This document shows positions 12,267 through 33,956 of a stretch of 64,000 nt of DNA, piece after piece. Every line of letters begins with the position of its first letter. Within the stretch, counting starts at the first letter, position 1. Source of the DNA: Fusobacterium paranimalis (GTDB lineage: Bacteria; Fusobacteriota; Fusobacteriia; Fusobacteriales; Fusobacteriaceae); the NCBI GenBank assembly GCA_965278035.1, contig OZ256152.1:767389-831388 (forward strand), in the 5' to 3' direction. The translations under genes and the position numbers were made by a program. The notes beneath the pieces are model-generated. The model was not told the DNA's origin. It saw only the letters and a program-made list of their open reading frames with translations, and ran no database searches.

Positions 12267-12548
12267 TTACAATTCTATATTTCTATTATTTTCCTTCTCA
12301 TTTCTTGCTTTCTCTGCCCAAGTATCATATAAAATCATAGCTGAAAAAGCACAACAGTTTTCTAAGGTAGTGTCAGAAGATACAACTTCAAAATCTACAC
12401 TCTTTATAATTCTTCCATTTTCAATTCTCTTTGCAATTTCTTTATCTAATTCTTCTTTCGTTTTACAAAACAATGTTTCTACATACTTATGTGCATTATC
12501 TAATTCTATATCTTTTTTATCATTCTTTTTATTTTGAAAAAATCCCAT
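12267..12548 (-). CDS. Hypothetical protein, translationally coupled to the VirB6-like gene
   Basis: The Shine-Dalgarno sequence AAGGAGAG overlaps the VirB6 stop, with an ATG 10 nt downstream. The product is hydrophilic and protein-like. The opposite-strand ORF (12184..12537) is low-complexity and hydrophobic and was rejected. Confidence 0.4.
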   Translation of the reverse strand: MGFFQNKKNDKKDIELDNAHKYVETLFCKTKEELDKEIAKRIENGRIIKSVDFEVVSSDTTLENCCAFSAMILYDTWAEKARNEKENNRNIEL

Positions 12549-12552
12549 AAAA

Positions 12553-13551
12553 TCAACTCTCCTTATTATTACTTTTATTAAATTTATTTAATAAAAATGT
12601 AGCTGCTTTGTATGTTGCACTTCTTCCATTATCCTCACCAAATCTTGCCTTAGCATTATAAGAACTTGCCTTATTAATATCCCCACCTATTAATCTTCCT
12701 GGTGCAGATGACATCCTTGAAACTCCTCCTGCCATAGCATTTGCCCCTATTCCAAAACTTGCTATTGCTCCTGACATTAAACTTGAAGCAATAGATCCTG
12801 TTTTTGATAATAGTGCGTACATAAATAGTATTAAAGCCCATCTAGTCCATAATGTATCCTTTATTCCTCCTGTAACTTTAAAGAATGAATAATCATCTAA
12901 GTATTCTAAGAAGTTTAACATTATTATCAGTACAAATACCTCTATTGCTTGTGCAAGAAGTCCATTAAGTGCTTTTAAGGTAATATCTTTTGTCTTATCA
13001 AATCCAGCAAATGGCATAAGAATATATGCAAAACCTGACATAAAATAGAATTTAATAAATGTTGTTACTATATGTACATATAGCATTAAGAAAAATATTA
13101 AATATGCTGCTATAAACATCAGTCCTACTGTTGTCGCTGATTCTAGTCCTGAATAGTCCAGTGCCGCAAATCCTATTGCTGTTAATATTCCTCCTGCTAT
13201 ATCTCCAAACTCCACTCCATACTTATTTAATATTTTAAAATCTAAACTTGATGAAGTTGAGCCTGTTGCAGCAAAGTTACCTAACTGTACTGCTCCTTCA
13301 AATAATGTATGGAACATTATCTCCTTATACTCTTTTATTATATAGAAAAAAAATGAATAATACAAAACCTTTTTTATTAATTTCATAAAAATATTTACTC
13401 CATCACTTTCATCAAATAAAAATGATAAAGAAATATCTATTACAACTAATGCTCCAAACATAGCTATAACTGTTGGCTCTAAGTTTTTAATAATCTTTCC
13501 TGCGAATTCCACAGCAGCAGTTAATATAAGCTGTACATCAACTCCTAACAT
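12553..13551 (-). CDS. VirB6/TrbL-like conjugal transfer membrane protein
   Basis: 332 aa, polytopic (5-6 TM), with a hydrophilic C-terminal tail. Lies within the T4SS gene cluster. Confidence 0.55.
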   Translation of the reverse strand: MLGVDVQLILTAAVEFAGKIIKNLEPTVIAMFGALVVIDISLSFLFDESDGVNIFMKLIKKVLYYSFFFYIIKEYKEIMFHTLFEGAVQLGNFAATGSTSSSLDFKILNKYGVEFGDIAGGILTAIGFAALDYSGLESATTVGLMFIAAYLIFFLMLYVHIVTTFIKFYFMSGFAYILMPFAGFDKTKDITLKALNGLLAQAIEVFVLIIMLNFLEYLDDYSFFKVTGGIKDTLWTRWALILFMYALLSKTGSIASSLMSGAIASFGIGANAMAGGVSRMSSAPGRLIGGDINKASSYNAKARFGEDNGRSATYKAATFLLNKFNKSNNKES

Positions 13552-13554
13552 AAT

Positions 13555-14004
13555 CTAACCCCCTTTTAAGTGATTTATTATTGGGATTAAAAGAGTTAAA
13601 AAATAAGCTGTTAATGTATAGAATATAAATTTTCTCTGACTTATTTTTCTTTCCTTATACATACTTAAACTCCAAATACTAAAAAACATTGAGTAGTATA
13701 AGAAGTTATTTATATATTTAGGTAAAAAACTTATTATTGGCATTCCAAAAAAATTAATATCTAATAATAAAATTATTAAAAAAGTATAGGTAAATCCAAT
13801 AAATTTGATACTTTCTTTAAAATTTATATTTCTCTTTTTTAACTCTTTATAAAAATGAGGTATAAAAAGAAGTGGAACAAAAGCTGGAATTATCTTACTT
13901 AAATGTGCTATCTTTATCCTATTTAAAATAACTCCAAATATTACTATTGCAATAAAAGTATAAATATTCTGTAATTGAAATATATTCCTAATTCTTTTAA
14001 ACAT
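13555..14004 (-). CDS. Hypothetical integral membrane protein (T4SS cluster)
   Basis: 149 aa with 4 predicted TM helices. No recognisable motif. Confidence 0.35.
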   Translation of the reverse strand: MFKRIRNIFQLQNIYTFIAIVIFGVILNRIKIAHLSKIIPAFVPLLFIPHFYKELKKRNINFKESIKFIGFTYTFLIILLLDINFFGMPIISFLPKYINNFLYYSMFFSIWSLSMYKERKISQRKFIFYTLTAYFLTLLIPIINHLKGG

Positions 14005-14017
14005 CTTTTTCTCTCCC

Positions 14018-31574: not shown

Positions 31575-31586
31575 GGAGCTGATAAA

Positions 31587-32414
31587 ATGTTTAAAATTAA
31601 TGAAAGAAATTTAATAGGTATTGTTTTTACTGGATTTATAGTTATTTTTGTAATAGGTCTTGTACTTAGTAATTGTTATTCAGTTAATACAGGAGAAGTT
31701 GCTATTATATCAACTTTTGGAAAAATCACTAGAATAGATACAGAAGGTTTAAATTTTAAAATACCTTTTGTCCAATCAAAAGACTATATGGAAACAAGAG
31801 AAAAAACATATATCTTTGGAAAAACTGATGAACAAGATACAACCTTAGTTGTTTCTACAAAAGATATGCAATCAATATTAATTGACTTAACTGTCCAAGC
31901 GAATATTACAGACCCTGAAAAGCTATATAGAGCATTTCATAACAAACACGAATATCGTTTTGTAAGACCTCGTGTAAAAGAAGTTGTACAGGCTACTATC
32001 GCAAGGTATACCATAGAAGAATTTGTTTCTAAAAGAGCTGAAATTAGTAGAATCATAAATGAAGATATAGCAGATGATCTTGCTGAGTATGGAATGAATG
32101 TATCTAATGTTTCTATTGTAAATCATGACTTTTCTGATGAATATGAGAAAGCTATTGAGATGAAAAAAGTTGCTGAACAAGCTGTGGAAAGAGCAAAAGC
32201 AGAACAAGAAAAATTAAAAGTAGAAGCTGAAAATAGAGTAAAACTTGCTGAATATGCTTTAAAAGAAAAAGAATTACAAGCAAAAGCTAATGAAATAGAA
32301 AGTAATTCATTAAGTCCACAGTTACTTAAAAAGATGGCAATAGAAAAATGGAATGGAATCTTACCAAAAGTTCAAAGTCCTAATAACAGTAATTTAATTA
32401 GTATAGACAATTAA
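31587..32414 (+). CDS. SPFH/band-7 (prohibitin-like) domain membrane protein
   Basis: N-terminal TM helix, an SPFH core, and a coiled-coil C-terminal region. Confidence 0.75.
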   Translation: MFKINERNLIGIVFTGFIVIFVIGLVLSNCYSVNTGEVAIISTFGKITRIDTEGLNFKIPFVQSKDYMETREKTYIFGKTDEQDTTLVVSTKDMQSILIDLTVQANITDPEKLYRAFHNKHEYRFVRPRVKEVVQATIARYTIEEFVSKRAEISRIINEDIADDLAEYGMNVSNVSIVNHDFSDEYEKAIEMKKVAEQAVERAKAEQEKLKVEAENRVKLAEYALKEKELQAKANEIESNSLSPQLLKKMAIEKWNGILPKVQSPNNSNLISIDN

Positions 32415-32502
32415 GAGATAGATTATAGATATACAAACTACATAAAAAAACTAATATATGAATTGTCTATAAGCACAAACAGTAAAAATAGGAGAATATA
32501 AT

Positions 32503-32733
32503 ATGTTAGAAAAATATCCTGATATTTTAAAAGTACCTGAAATATCACAAATTTTAAGAATTGGTATACAAAAAGTATATAAGTTATTAAAAAGTGGTGA
32601 AATAAAAAATAAAAAAATTGGTAATCTCTATTTTATTTCTAAAGAAGATTTGATAAAATATATTAGAGGAAATAAGACCAAAAATTCATCTTCTTTATCT
32701 ATAAAGGAGAAAAGAGATGAAAGTAAAATTTAA
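32503..32733 (+). CDS. Excisionase-type HTH DNA-binding protein
   Basis: 76 aa with an HTH (VPEISQILRIGIQKVYKLLKSGEI). It lies directly upstream of the integrase and overlaps it. Confidence 0.55.
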   Translation: MLEKYPDILKVPEISQILRIGIQKVYKLLKSGEIKNKKIGNLYFISKEDLIKYIRGNKTKNSSSLSIKEKRDESKI

Positions 32734-33907
32734 CCACAGATTAAGGGAAAGAAATGGGATATATCATGTAGTTGTTTATTGGATAAATCCCATTACAAAA
32801 GAACAAGAAAGTAAGTCAAAAAGCACAGGACTCAAGCTAAAAGGCAATAAAAAGAAAGCAGAAGAAATAGGAGAAGCTTTTCTTAAAGAAGTAAAAGAAC
32901 AATATAAAGATGCATATCAAGATGATAAAGTAGTAAAAATTGAAGAGCAAAAAATTAAATTTCTTGATTTTCTTGAACAATCTATAACTAATAGCAAAAA
33001 TACAATACAATATCCAACATACAAATCATACAAGGATCAACAAAGAATTATAGAAAAATTTTTTTCTCAAAAAAATCTTGATTTAGAGGCTGTTACTGTA
33101 GCAAATATATTAGATTTCTACAATCATCTATCAATTGTGAGAAAAAATACTAATAATACTATAATACATTATCATGCATTATTGAGAAAAACTTTTACTG
33201 AAGCACATATAAGAAAACTAATTAAAGAAAATATAATGTTAGAAATCCCAAGACCTAAAAAAGAAAAATATATCTCTGAGGTTTTTAATTTAAAAGAGAT
33301 TAATACTTTTTTAAATTATATTAAAGGACATAAATTTGAATTAGAACTGAACTTAGCATTATTTTATGGTTTTCGTAGAAGTGAACTACTAGGATTAAGA
33401 TTTTCAGTAATTGATTTTGATAATAATACTATTTTGGTTAATACTAAAATTACTTCTTCAGAAGAGGAAAAATTAGTTGCTAAACAAAAAATGAAAAATG
33501 ATAGTAGTTATAGAATTATGCCTTTATTAGCTTCAATAAAAGAATTAATAATTCAAAGAATGGAAAGAATAAAAAAAGATAAAAACTTCTTTAAAAGTTC
33601 TTATACAAAGAAATGGGAGGGATTTATATGTGTAGGTGAAGATGGTGAGCTTATTAAACCAGACAGGGTTACAAAAACATTTAGAAGGCTTATAAAGGAA
33701 TGTGGTCTTAAAAAAATTAGGTTACATGATTTAAGGCATTCTTGTGCAACACTTTTATATGAGCAGGATATACAGTTAAAAGATATACAAATGTGGCTTG
33801 GACATAGTGATATACAAACTACTGCAAATATATACTCACATTTTGATTACACTAGAAAAGAAAAAACTGGAGAAATTATTGAAAAATCTTTAAAAAACTT
33901 AAAGTAA
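32717..33907 (+). CDS. Tyrosine-type site-specific integrase
   Basis: C-terminal catalytic signature R...HDLRHSCAT...HSDIQTTANIYSHF (R-H-R-Y). Confidence 0.9.
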   Translation: MKVKFNHRLRERNGIYHVVVYWINPITKEQESKSKSTGLKLKGNKKKAEEIGEAFLKEVKEQYKDAYQDDKVVKIEEQKIKFLDFLEQSITNSKNTIQYPTYKSYKDQQRIIEKFFSQKNLDLEAVTVANILDFYNHLSIVRKNTNNTIIHYHALLRKTFTEAHIRKLIKENIMLEIPRPKKEKYISEVFNLKEINTFLNYIKGHKFELELNLALFYGFRRSELLGLRFSVIDFDNNTILVNTKITSSEEEKLVAKQKMKNDSSYRIMPLLASIKELIIQRMERIKKDKNFFKSSYTKKWEGFICVGEDGELIKPDRVTKTFRRLIKECGLKKIRLHDLRHSCATLLYEQDIQLKDIQMWLGHSDIQTTANIYSHFDYTRKEKTGEIIEKSLKNLK

Positions 33908-33956
33908 AAAGGACTATATAAAATAGTCCAATTAAAAGTATTTAAGATGCCTAATA

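What the first reader, a model, noticed from the sequence alone, without database searches (positions are those of the whole stretch)
12267..33956. About 21.7-kb integrative conjugative element with a Gram-negative-type T4SS but no visible relaxase or second att site
The block contains VirB2, B3, B4, B6, B8, B9, B10 and B11, VirD4, a CHC2-Toprim primase, ParA, an XRE regulator, a Dam-like methyltransferase, a YhcG-like nuclease, an SPFH protein, an excisionase and a tyrosine integrase. It ends 50 nt from tRNA-Leu(CAA). No HUH relaxase (MOB) gene is recognisable in it, and no direct repeat of the tRNA 3' end was found at candidate left junctions (11917-12266, 9388-9781, 1228-1579). Either the relaxase, oriT and second att site lie outside the window, or the element is larger than the T4SS block and carries the metallophore locus as cargo. 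Motif 1 at 953-971 supports the second reading. Alternatively the relaxase is highly divergent.
Basis: partly seen in the sequence, partly recalled or inferred. Interest (0 to 1): 0.55.

Follow-up and report, generated by a model that had tools for sequence, protein, structure and literature searches.

The report
Large Fusobacterium ICE cut by window edge
The 21.7-kb block is the right-hand part of an ordinary but much larger (about 55-60 kb) conjugative element, whose relaxase and left end lie just outside the window, and which splits the host tRNA-Leu gene while carrying a replacement copy.

Summary
The listed genes are all present at 12267-33907, and no relaxase is in the block or anywhere in the window. 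The block is not a whole element.

- **Extent.** Conjugation genes resume left of the metallophore locus (79-aa and 295-aa ORFs, 51-1227). The first 10 codons of a VirB1-like transglycosylase run off window position 1.
- **Relaxase.** In more than 20 contigs 98-99% identical to the window, the order continues: TraF-like S26 peptidase, topoisomerase, MobA/MobL (MOBQ) relaxase about 5.3 kb beyond the edge with an oriT-like site, methylase, a 2036-aa helicase, TraD, cargo and Rep.
- **Insertion site.** Empty sites show GlmS, native tRNA-Leu(CAA), tRNA-Arg. The element inserts at a 12-bp core in that tRNA's anticodon loop.
- **Right junction.** It lies at 34148-34159, followed by the orphaned native 5' half (34160-34188). 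The tRNA-Leu at 33957-34044 belongs to the element and replaces the split gene.
- **Cargo.** The zincophore locus, metK, EamA and the Lys/Orn monooxygenase sit inside the element.

The family is widespread in the F. nucleatum group and is exchanged horizontally. This genome's own left end was not seen.

The parts
1..32 (-). First 10 codons (MKKNILLLLL) of the SLT / VirB1-like lytic transglycosylase gene; the conjugation operon runs off the left edge of the window
   Evidence: identical to the start of the SLT gene L035:10907-11479, PF01464 E 1e-24
51..938 (-). 295-aa ORF of unknown function, always between the 79-aa ORF and SLT in the left conjugation arm
954..970 (.).
   Evidence: 5 found, 0 expected; also between the topoisomerase gene and mobA in relatives, absent from chromosomal loci
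988..1227 (-). 79-aa ORF, first gene of the left conjugation arm after the cargo
1580..8164 (+). Cargo: opine-type zincophore locus (binding protein 1580-2722, FecCD permease 2815-3852, ABC ATPase 3845-4618, MatE exporter 4621-6033, CntL/nicotianamine-synthase-like 6079-6870, CntM/staphylopine dehydrogenase 6860-8164)
   Evidence: matches the fusobacterial MatE-type cluster of PMC7438024
8233..9387 (+). Cargo: second, element-borne S-adenosylmethionine synthetase (metK). The CDS is 92.5% identical to the chromosomal metK and the flanks are unrelated
9782..11916 (-). Cargo: EamA transporter (9782-10645) and Lys/Orn N-monooxygenase (10642-11916). The segment between metK and the 93-aa ORF varies between relatives
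   Evidence: L016; L031-L037
12267..14860 (-). 93-aa ORF (12267-12548), VirB6/TrbL (12553-13551), 149-aa membrane ORF (13555-14004), TrbJ/VirB5-like 280-aa ORF (14018-14860)
   Evidence: (TrbJ TIGR02780 E 1.8e-9, below the curated cut-off)
14876..14892 (.). Operator-like palindrome, copy 2
14913..21844 (-). CHC2-Toprim primase (14913-15977), VirB4/TrbE (15928-18315), VirB3 (18302-18568), VirB11 (18609-19577), 80-aa ORF (19571-19813), VirD4 coupling protein (19814-21844)
   Evidence: (VirB4 44-46% identical to TrbE-type proteins on an Ilyobacter plasmid and F. varium plasmids)
21846..26428 (-). 156-aa ORF (21846-22316), VirB10/TrbI (22316-23437), VirB9 (23451-24263), 245-aa ORF (24275-25012), 130-aa ORF (25023-25415), VirB8 (25418-26095), VirB2/TrbC pilin (26102-26428)
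26445..26461 (.). Operator-like palindrome, copy 3, 17 nt upstream of the virB2 start
26549..29396 (-). XRE regulator (26549-26899), D12 adenine methyltransferase (27139-28140), YhcG PDDEXK nuclease (28329-29396)
29577..30995 (+). ParA (29579-30301) with operator copies 4 (29577-29593) and 5 (30315-30331), followed by a 215-aa ORF (30348-30995)
31587..33907 (+). SPFH protein (31587-32414), excisionase (32503-32733), tyrosine integrase (32717-33907)
   Evidence: (identical integrase listed in 1555 collection blocks)
33957..34044 (-). Element-borne, complete tRNA-Leu(CAA) that replaces the split host gene
   Evidence: Absent from empty sites. Travels with the integrase in the tandem junction L042
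34045..34147 (.). Element-borne spacer between the replacement tRNA and the att core
34148..34159 (.). attR core GATTTTGAGTCT (anticodon loop and stem), the right junction of the element
   Evidence: attB ..CCAGATTTTGAGTCTGGTG.., attL ..CCAGATTTTGAGTCTTAATT.., attR ..GATGATTTTGAGTCTGGTG..
34160..34188 (-). Orphaned 5' half of the native chromosomal tRNA-Leu(CAA) (chromosome, not element), followed 8 nt later by tRNA-Arg(ACG) exactly as in empty sites

Best explanation
The block is the right-hand 22 kb of one integrative conjugative element of roughly 55-60 kb. The element occupies window 1-34159 and continues about 20 kb or more beyond the left edge.

Its order, read right to left:
1. attR, spacer and its own tRNA-Leu(CAA).
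2. Integrase, excisionase, SPFH, ParA, YhcG nuclease, Dam-like methylase and XRE.
3. A P-type (Trb/VirB-like) mating-pore operon with VirD4 and a primase.
4. Variable cargo. Here this is the Lys/Orn monooxygenase, EamA, a second metK and an opine zincophore cluster.
5. The 79-aa and 295-aa ORFs, VirB1-like SLT, TraF-like S26 peptidase and a type IA topoisomerase.
6. An oriT-like site and the MobA/MobL (MOBQ) relaxase.
7. A methylase, a 2036-aa methylase-helicase, TraD, a second cargo slot, Rep and attL.

Shown here: the tyrosine integrase's target is a 12-bp core (GATTTTGAGTCT) in the anticodon loop of the chromosomal tRNA-Leu(CAA), which lies between glmS and the tRNA-Arg pair. Insertion splits that gene. 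Its 3' half stays next to glmS at attL, and its 5' half stays at 34160-34188. The core does not rebuild the gene.

Inferred: the element's own complete tRNA-Leu(CAA), 103 nt inside attR and co-oriented with the host tRNA operon, supplies the function. Excision by Int and Xis would restore the native gene. MobA would nick the oriT upstream of its gene, and VirD4 would hand the strand to the T4SS. A shared palindromic operator in front of the virB2, trbJ-like, parA, 295-aa and mobA units suggests one regulon.
For: **Continuity with the relaxase arm**
- Window 1-32 (minus strand) is the start of the SLT gene.
- Eighteen loci 98.3-99.5% identical to window 1-9400 or 1-19384 continue leftward with SLT, S26 peptidase and topoisomerase. 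Wherever the locus reaches far enough, MobA/MobL, the methylase and the 2036-aa helicase follow.
- One 57,474-nt contig carries the whole order from tRNA-Leu to beyond TraD. The pieces are the attR end (L048), the T4SS, cargo and binding protein (L015), and topoisomerase, MobA, helicase and TraD (L080).

**The relaxase**
- MobA scores PF03389 E 4.8e-19.
- Its N-terminus aligns with the R1162 MobA relaxase domain (PDB 2NS6) at E 9e-28, with the Tyr and the H-x-H aligned.

**The oriT-like site**
- Its inverted repeat lies 66-99 nt, and the GTAAGCGTGC that follows 55-64 nt, upstream of the mobA start codon.
- The 230-nt intergenic region is 98% conserved across 10 loci.

**Junctions and empty sites**
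- Intact native tRNA-Leu (attB form) is seen in 13 loci. The clean empty sites are L089 and L110: glmS, native tRNA-Leu, then (L089) tRNA-Arg 8 nt on, then LamB.
- attL is seen in 7 loci and, in the five whose locus reaches that far, is linked to Rep through TraD and the helicase to MobA or beyond.
- attR is seen in the window and in 11 relatives.
- The same GlmS protein sits next to either an empty site or the element.
- One 63-kb metagenome contig carries both an attR end and a left-end junction of the same core, the latter abutting a second related element.

**Horizontal exchange**
- The element is 97.6-100% identical between genomes whose flanks are 93-95% identical.

**Shared operator**
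- GTATGG-N5-CCATAC occurs 5 times in the window against 0 expected, always inside the element.
- It also lies between the topoisomerase gene and mobA, and is absent from chromosomal loci.
Against: - The window's own genome was never retrieved, so its relaxase, oriT and attL are inferred from 98-99% identical relatives.
- Most Rep-side ends seen (21 loci) carry a fragment of a different tRNA and sit at other chromosomal sites. A sister sub-family therefore exists, and a hybrid element with mismatched ends in this genome cannot be excluded.
- One metagenome contig (L018) joins the T4SS half to chromosomal metK, glyoxalase and ATP synthase without the relaxase arm.
- No backbone lacking cargo between the 93-aa and 79-aa ORFs was found.
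- No excised circular form was observed.
- Function of the replacement tRNA, the oriT and the operator is inferred, not shown.
Confidence: 0.85

Rival explanations
1. The element is one unit by descent but is no longer excisable in this genome. Its left end may be the other (non-Leu) tRNA type, or may have been lost through recombination between sister elements or at metK. It would then be a locked-in or hybrid remnant.
For: - 21 Rep-side ends carry the fragment TGGCTGGGGTGGCTGGATTCGAAC, with varied flanks.
- L018 shows a T4SS half joined to chromosomal metK.
- The right flank of this window has lost LamB, Nramp and CT_C_D, so the region is rearrangement-prone.
Against: - All in-window genes are full length and match the lengths seen in relatives.
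- attR is intact.
- Leu-type attL junctions are common next to glmS.
- The element is more conserved than its flanks, which argues for recent transfer.
Confidence: 0.1
2. The 21.7-kb block is a self-contained, relaxase-less T4SS island. It would be either a protein-secretion system or an element mobilised by a relaxase acting in trans, and the metallophore locus would be chromosomal.
For: No relaxase or second att site lies within 12267-33956. L018 shows the block next to chromosomal genes.
Against: - The empty site has glmS directly beside the tRNA-Leu, not the monooxygenase, EamA or metK.
- Conjugation genes missing from the block (VirB1, TraF, relaxase, TraD) sit just beyond the cargo, on the same strand and with the same operator.
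- ATCC 25586 lacks cntL and cntM (PMC11602996), so the zincophore locus is accessory.
Confidence: 0.03
3. A highly divergent relaxase hides among the unannotated ORFs of the block (for example the 245-aa, 215-aa or 280-aa ORFs, or the primase).
For: Ten or so ORFs have no family assignment.
Against: - None has an HUH motif, and seven have no histidine at all.
- NCBIfam gives only TrbJ for the 280-aa ORF.
- A canonical MOBQ relaxase with an oriT-like site is present in the same element.
Confidence: 0.02

Closest known systems
[quoted passage not shown] 2007, PMC1924603)
   Same: A chromosomal block of about 59 genes with primase/helicase, topoisomerase, integrase, partitioning protein, mobilisation protein and VirB4, B8, B10, B11 and VirD4 homologues. 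It is very likely the same family.
   Different: That description gave no att sites, no integration target and no replacement tRNA. It reported the mobilisation gene as a pseudogene and the pilus genes as missing. I could not compare sequences.
P-type (Trb/VirB, MPF-T) conjugation systems paired with MOBQ relaxases such as R1162/RSF1010 MobA
   Same: - TrbC, TrbE, TrbI, TrbJ-like and TrbL-like proteins, VirB8, B9 and B11, VirD4, a TraF-like S26 peptidase and a VirB1-like SLT.
- MobA aligns with 2NS6, including the catalytic Tyr and H-x-H.
- The oriT-like site has an inverted repeat followed by GTAAG-GTGC. Its resemblance to R1162 oriT is from memory.
   Different: - It is integrative, with a tyrosine integrase and excisionase.
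- VirB4 is only 40-46% identical to any plasmid homologue, and MobA only 36-39% to its best-covered plasmid homologues.
- The relaxase is 701 aa with a long coiled-coil tail and no primase fusion.
tRNA-dependent lysogeny of actinobacteriophages (Guerrero-Bustamante and Hatfull 2024, PMC10865867)
   Same: A tyrosine integrase recombines a short common core of about 10 bp inside a host tRNA gene, so the tRNA is not rebuilt. [quoted passage not shown] Here the core is 12 bp and the carried gene is tRNA-Leu(CAA).
   Different: - This is a conjugative element, not a phage.
- The replacement tRNA sits 103 nt from the core and is co-oriented with the host tRNA operon.
- Dependence on the tRNA is untested.
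- The replacement tRNA itself serves as a further attachment site (L055).
Fusobacteriaceae plasmids (Ilyobacter polytropus NC_014634.1, F. varium AP017969/AP017970)
   Same: They hold the closest plasmid-borne VirB4/TrbE (44-46% identity). The Ilyobacter plasmid also has a MobA/MobL gene about 9 kb from it.
   Different: They are autonomous plasmids. There is no nucleotide-level similarity.
Fusobacterial MatE-type opine zincophore gene cluster (Morey and Kehl-Fie 2020, PMC7438024, CntM cluster 8)
   Same: CntM and a CntL-like enzyme with a MatE exporter and an ABC importer, as in window 1580-8164.
   Different: That paper does not mention mobility. Here the cluster, together with an extra metK, is cargo inside a conjugative element.

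Membership tests
Integrative and conjugative element (ICE) | Site-specific recombinase with flanking att sites, and an identifiable empty site | tested here: met
   Integrase and Xis at 32503-33907. attR core at 34148-34159 in the window. attL in 7 related loci and intact attB in 13 loci. attL of this genome itself lies outside the window.
Integrative and conjugative element (ICE) | Complete mating-pore set with VirB4 and a coupling protein | tested here: met
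   VirB2, 3, 4, 6, 8, 9, 10, 11 and VirD4 all score above the Pfam cut-offs. A TrbJ/VirB5-like hit is weak. The VirB1 start is in the window. No VirB7 was recognised.
Integrative and conjugative element (ICE) | Relaxase and oriT on the same element | tested here: met
   Met in relatives 98-99% identical to the window, with MobA about 5.3 kb left of position 1. It cannot be read in the window itself.
Integrative and conjugative element (ICE) | Excision to a circle and conjugative transfer | not testable with these tools
   There is only indirect support. The element is 97.6-100% identical across genomes with 93-95% identical flanks, and it shows presence/absence polymorphism beside an identical GlmS.
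MOBQ (MobA/MobL) relaxases | MobA_MobL domain with the N-terminal catalytic Tyr and the His triad / HUH motif | tested here: met
   PF03389 scores 69.5 bits against a cut-off of 26.7. phmmer against 2NS6 gives E 9e-28, with FKY aligned to ADY and NVHAHIMI to NPHCHLMI. HAH lies at residues 119-121.
MOBQ (MobA/MobL) relaxases | oriT made of an inverted repeat followed by a conserved nick sequence next to the relaxase gene | tested here: inconclusive
   The inverted repeat AGTTTCTTCCTTTTT/AAAAGGATAGAAACT is followed by TGTAAGCGTGCA upstream of mobA. The intergenic region is 98% conserved. The likeness to R1162 oriT is from memory, and no nicking data exist.
tRNA-dependent integration (as defined for phages in PMC10865867) | [quoted passage not shown] | tested here: met
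   The core is 12 bp. The native halves are separated at attL and attR, and the sequence next to the core on the element side is a spacer, not tRNA.
tRNA-dependent integration (as defined for phages in PMC10865867) | [quoted passage not shown] | tested here: met
   tRNA-Leu(CAA) at 33957-34044 is called by ARAGORN and scores 59.7 bits with Rfam. It is absent from empty sites.
tRNA-dependent integration (as defined for phages in PMC10865867) | The element tRNA is required for stable integration or host viability | not testable with these tools
   This needs a deletion of the element tRNA. It is also unknown whether the genome has another tRNA-Leu(CAA) or can read UUG through tRNA-Leu(UAA).
Opine (staphylopine-like) zincophore clusters | CntM opine dehydrogenase plus a CntL-type aminobutyryl transferase, with an exporter and an importer | tested here: met
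   PF10100 E 5e-116. The NAS family scores 30.9 bits against a cut-off of 27.1. A MatE exporter and a binding protein, FecCD and ATPase importer are present. No CntK-like racemase lies in the locus.

The most novel reading that the evidence does not exclude
This is a conjugative element that uses 'disrupt and replace' tRNA integration, so far described only for actinobacteriophages. Only the functionally constrained 12-bp anticodon-loop core has to match, and the element brings its own tRNA-Leu(CAA). It could therefore enter any host with a tRNA-Leu(CAA) gene, however diverged the rest of that tRNA is. Its own tRNA copy also offers a fresh landing site, which would explain the tandem arrays seen at this locus. 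The same element spreads a zincophore cluster with its own SAM synthetase among F. nucleatum-group species.
Probability: 0.5. Interest if true: 0.5.

Novelty: new member of a known kind. Interest (0 to 1): 0.35.

Why it matters
The apparent paradox of a T4SS element without a relaxase or a second att site disappears. It came from the window edge and from an unexpected integration geometry. There is no need to invoke an unknown relaxase class.

Three practical results follow:
- Exact att sequences for a very common F. nucleatum-group element. The identical integrase is listed in 1555 collection blocks. These sequences allow its boundaries, its empty sites and PCR assays for excision to be defined.
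- Evidence that the fusobacterial opine zincophore cluster, plus an extra metK, is mobile cargo rather than core genome. This bears on metal competition in oral and tumour niches.
- A likely first example outside phages of integration that splits a tRNA gene and compensates with an element-borne copy.

Tried and rejected
- **Repeat of the tRNA 3' end.** I searched for a direct repeat of the visible tRNA 3' end in the window and in the first 39 loci. There is none. The duplicated core is only 12 bp and the native 3' half has a different sequence.
- **Scan of genome contigs** with the 28-mer of the element tRNA. It returned only one MAG contig (L040), labelled Eubacteriales, which is simply the same element end.
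- **Scan of metagenome contigs** with a 22-mer of the element tRNA. It could not retrieve true empty sites or normal attL sites, because these carry the native tRNA sequence. I first misread L052 as an empty site and took the integration to be the classical kind that restores the 3' half. L052 is in fact an IS256 insertion 17 nt from the element tRNA. The classical model was dropped once L081, L083 and L089 were seen.
- **Nucleotide search of plasmids** with the T4SS block: no match.
I worked around this through cluster-member ids.
- **Flanking repeats around the cargo** at 1228-1579, 9388-9781 and 11917-12266: none found.
- **Inversion between the two metK copies** as the origin of L018 and of the L031-type loci: rejected. 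The two junctions are not reciprocal.
- **Left flank of the element as glyoxalase and ATP synthase:** rejected. It is glmS.

Full report
**Observation**

The window has about 27% G+C throughout.
- VirB2, B3, B4, B6, B8, B9, B10 and B11, and VirD4
- a CHC2-Toprim primase
- an XRE regulator
- a D12 adenine methylase
- a YhcG nuclease
- ParA
- an SPFH protein
- an excisionase and a tyrosine integrase

A tRNA-Leu(CAA) lies at 33957-34044 on the minus strand, followed by two tRNA-Arg genes.

No relaxase is present. The unannotated ORFs have no relaxase hit in Pfam or NCBIfam; the only gain is a weak TrbJ/VirB5 match for the 280-aa ORF. None has an HUH motif, and seven contain no histidine at all. 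tblastn with the family's MobA finds nothing anywhere in the window. No repeat of the tRNA 3' end exists in the window. The observation therefore holds. The size and the boundaries do not.

**The element continues to the left, and the relaxase is just outside the window**

Contigs encoding the identical VirB6 always show the 93-aa ORF, the Lys/Orn monooxygenase, EamA and metK next to it. Contigs encoding the identical MetK or the identical 295-aa protein show, beyond the metallophore locus:
- the 79-aa and 295-aa ORFs
- an SLT (VirB1-like) transglycosylase
- an S26 (TraF-like) peptidase
- a 682-aa type IA topoisomerase
- a 701-aa MobA/MobL protein
- an N6/N4 methylase with a RAMA domain
- a 2036-aa methylase-helicase

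These loci are 98.3-99.5% identical to window 1-9400 or 1-19384.

Window 1-32 on the minus strand is itself the first ten codons of the SLT gene. The operon therefore demonstrably runs off the edge. The relaxase gene would start about 5.3 kb left of position 1.

The relaxase is a typical MOBQ protein. It scores PF03389 E 4.8e-19. Its first 182 residues align with the R1162 MobA relaxase domain (2NS6) at E 9e-28, with the catalytic Tyr and the H-x-H aligned.

The 230-nt region upstream of mobA is unusually G+C-rich and 98% conserved across ten loci. It holds an inverted repeat followed by TGTAAGCGTGCA, which is the layout of a MOBQ oriT. The comparison with R1162 oriT is from memory. A TraD-like gene follows the helicase.

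One 57,474-nt contig carries everything in one piece. L048 is the attR end. L015 runs from the T4SS through the cargo to the binding protein. L080 runs from the topoisomerase through MobA and the helicase to TraD and further cargo.

**The palindrome**

It occurs five times in the window, against none expected by chance: at 954, 14876, 26445, 29577 and 30315. All five copies are inside the element, in front of the 295-aa gene, the trbJ-like gene, virB2, parA and the ORF after parA. The motif also lies between the topoisomerase gene and mobA in every left arm examined, and it is absent from chromosomal loci. In the mobA copy the arms are invariant while the spacer varies, as expected for a protein-binding site. 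This ties the two halves into one regulon.

**Boundaries**

The far-left gene is a 344-347-aa protein that NCBI names 'replication protein'.

- **Empty sites** show glmS, a terminator and an intact native tRNA-Leu(CAA). tRNA-Arg(ACG) follows 8 nt later, then tRNA-Arg(TCG) and LamB (L089, L110).
- **attL** is seen in seven loci. glmS is followed by the 3' half of that native tRNA up to GATTTTGAGTCT. Then come TAATTTCCTC..., Rep, cargo and, where the locus reaches that far, TraD, the helicase and MobA.
- **attR** is in the window. The same 12-bp core at 34148-34159 is followed by the matching native 5' half (34160-34188) and by tRNA-Arg at the native 8-nt spacing. The anticodon-stem and acceptor strands of the two orphaned halves are complementary.

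The visible tRNA-Leu (33957-34044) and the 103-nt spacer are absent from empty sites. They travel with the integrase: in L042 the order is int, tRNA, spacer, core, and then the left end of another element.

So the element inserts into the anticodon loop and does not rebuild the gene. It carries a full replacement tRNA, oriented so that the host tRNA-operon transcript would read through it.

The same design was described in 2024 for actinobacteriophages as tRNA-dependent lysogeny (PMC10865867). My searches of the held literature found no conjugative element described this way.

**Size and cargo**

From attR to window position 1 is 34.2 kb. The arm out to the end of the helicase adds about 12.6 kb, and TraD to attL adds 5-9 kb depending on cargo. 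The total is about 55-60 kb. This fits a 63-kb metagenome contig that has both ends (an upper bound of 57.8 kb) and the 57-kb contig that does not yet reach Rep.

Cargo slot 1 lies between the 79-aa and 93-aa ORFs and is variable:
- The window carries a MatE-type opine zincophore cluster, metK, EamA and a Lys/Orn monooxygenase.
- L016 adds a lysine exporter, radical-SAM and aminomutase-like enzymes and an acetyltransferase.
- L031-L037 have an IS, LysE and an adenylation/carrier protein after metK.

The metK CDS is 92.5% identical to the chromosomal metK. The chromosomal copy sits in a conserved order of ATP synthase, glyoxalase, metK and EamA(291 aa), and its flanks are unrelated to those in the window. 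The window copy is therefore an extra, element-borne gene. It plausibly feeds the SAM-consuming CntL-like enzyme; this is inference.

The zincophore cluster type was catalogued before without mention of mobility (PMC7438024). ATCC 25586 lacks cntL and cntM (PMC11602996).

**Is it mobile or fixed?**

The identical integrase is listed in 1555 collection blocks and in complete genomes annotated as several species of the group. Between genomes, the element part is 97.6-100% identical while the adjacent chromosome is 93-95% identical, and the two similarity patterns disagree. L003 and L004 have identical flanks but elements 98.7% identical. L003 and L008 have identical elements but flanks 97.5% identical. 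An identical GlmS protein is found next to an empty site, next to the element, or next to a different small element.

This is what horizontal exchange at a defined site looks like. Actual excision and transfer remain untested.

**Complications**

- **A sister sub-family.** Twenty-one Rep-side ends carry a 24-nt 3' fragment of a different tRNA instead. They sit beside thiamine/V-ATPase, AP-endonuclease, GDPD or CRISPR-Cas genes. One genome (CP056007.1) has this type at the thi locus while its tRNA-Leu site holds a prophage. A sister sub-family with another integration module therefore exists. I never saw its integrase end.
- **This genome's left end.** I cannot say which left end the window's own genome has. 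This is the main residual uncertainty.
- **L018.** This contig joins the T4SS half to a chromosomal-type metK exactly at the 3' end of the gene. It is either a real recombinant or an assembly chimera.
- **L063.** Here a virB2-side end abuts Rep with no integrase. This may be a plasmid-like or tandem form.

**Comparison with known systems and verdict**

The mating pore is P-type. VirB4 is 44-46% identical to TrbE-type proteins on an Ilyobacter plasmid and F. varium plasmids, and about 40% identical to proteobacterial TrbE. The relaxase is MOBQ. An 'integrated conjugal plasmid' with the same gene classes was noted in F. polymorphum ATCC 10953 in 2007, without att sites (PMC1924603).

The finding is therefore an ordinary, widespread conjugative element truncated by the window, not a relaxase-less oddity. 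Two things go beyond the ordinary. One is the precise att structure with a split host tRNA and an element-borne replacement. The other is that a zincophore cluster with its own metK rides on it. I rate it a new member of a known kind, of modest interest.

Noticed in passing
window 24275-25012 and 25023-25415 (minus strand): Two adjacent ORFs between virB8 and virB9 (245 and 130 aa) have no family hit and no histidine. They share a C-terminal motif: ..NSWNKTKGSLGIAD and ..NSWDKRSQGIGIAD. This may be a common sorting or secretion tail.
   Followed up: partly
window 34553-34562 versus L052, L001-L010: Relative to all relatives, the window lacks about 2.6 kb to the right of the tRNA cluster: LamB/YcsF, Nramp, CT_C_D and the start of CT_A_B. 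A 91-aa CT_A_B fragment remains at 34742-35017.
   Followed up: partly
L042 (ODGK01000003.1), L107, L109, L051: A different small element encodes 238-aa and 464-aa proteins. L042 shows it sharing the 12-bp core and about 200 nt of the att-proximal arm (82% identity). There its left end is joined to the int, tRNA, spacer and core end of an ICE. It may be a satellite that uses the same integrase.
   Followed up: partly
L055 and L046 (same contig, ODTM01000066.1): Tandem array. A second related element, with an integrase region 87% identical at the nucleotide level, ends in the 3' part of its own tRNA-Leu copy. That copy is joined at the core to the left end of the window-type element. The element-borne tRNA can therefore act as an attachment site.
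   Followed up: partly
L039, L056-L079, L084, L085 (upstream of Rep): A sister sub-family has a left end made of a terminator hairpin plus TGGCTGGGGTGGCTGGATTCGAAC, which reads as the T-loop to CCA end of another tRNA. It sits at several chromosomal contexts. The hairpins differ between lineages. The identity of that tRNA and the matching integrase were not found.
   Followed up: partly
L018 (ERZ27283185 k141_71251) 14165-15333: The T4SS half plus monooxygenase and EamA is joined at the 3' end of metK to a chromosomal-type block of metK, glyoxalase and F-ATPase (98.9% identical to L096). This is either a recombinant between the two metK copies or an assembly chimera.
   Followed up: partly
L063 (ERZ27318679 k141_220141): VirB9 through VirB2, a 73-aa ORF in the XRE position, radical-SAM and ABC cargo and ToxN directly abut the Rep end, with no integrase between. 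This may be a plasmid-like or circular relative of the element.
   Followed up: no
L086, L087, L090, L094 (the glmS / tRNA-Leu / LamB locus): The same tRNA cluster is an integration hot spot. In some genomes a prophage with a different 371-aa integrase sits there and leaves the native tRNA-Leu intact. L094 has another conjugative element with a serine recombinase, and only tRNA-Arg(TCG) is still called there.
   Followed up: no
L052 (ODVK01003199.1) 4192-5351: An IS256-family transposase gene is inserted 17 nt from the 3' end of the element-borne tRNA-Leu and replaces the integrase side. This looked like an empty site at first.
   Followed up: yes
L040 (CAUULU010000013.1, MAG labelled 'uncultured Eubacteriales'): A 21.5-kb contig of a MAG labelled Eubacteriales carries the ParA-to-integrase-to-tRNA end of this element at 99.2% identity. 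This is most likely binning contamination rather than transfer.
   Followed up: no
window 9614-9750: The intergenic stretch between metK and EamA resembles (85-88%) an intergenic sequence between glmS and the M24 peptidase gene in L081, and one in L079. This may be a small dispersed repeat.
   Followed up: no
window 45001-48000 and 61001-63000: Two stretches with markedly lower G+C (0.175-0.21, against about 0.27-0.33 around them) lie outside the element. They were not examined.
   Followed up: no
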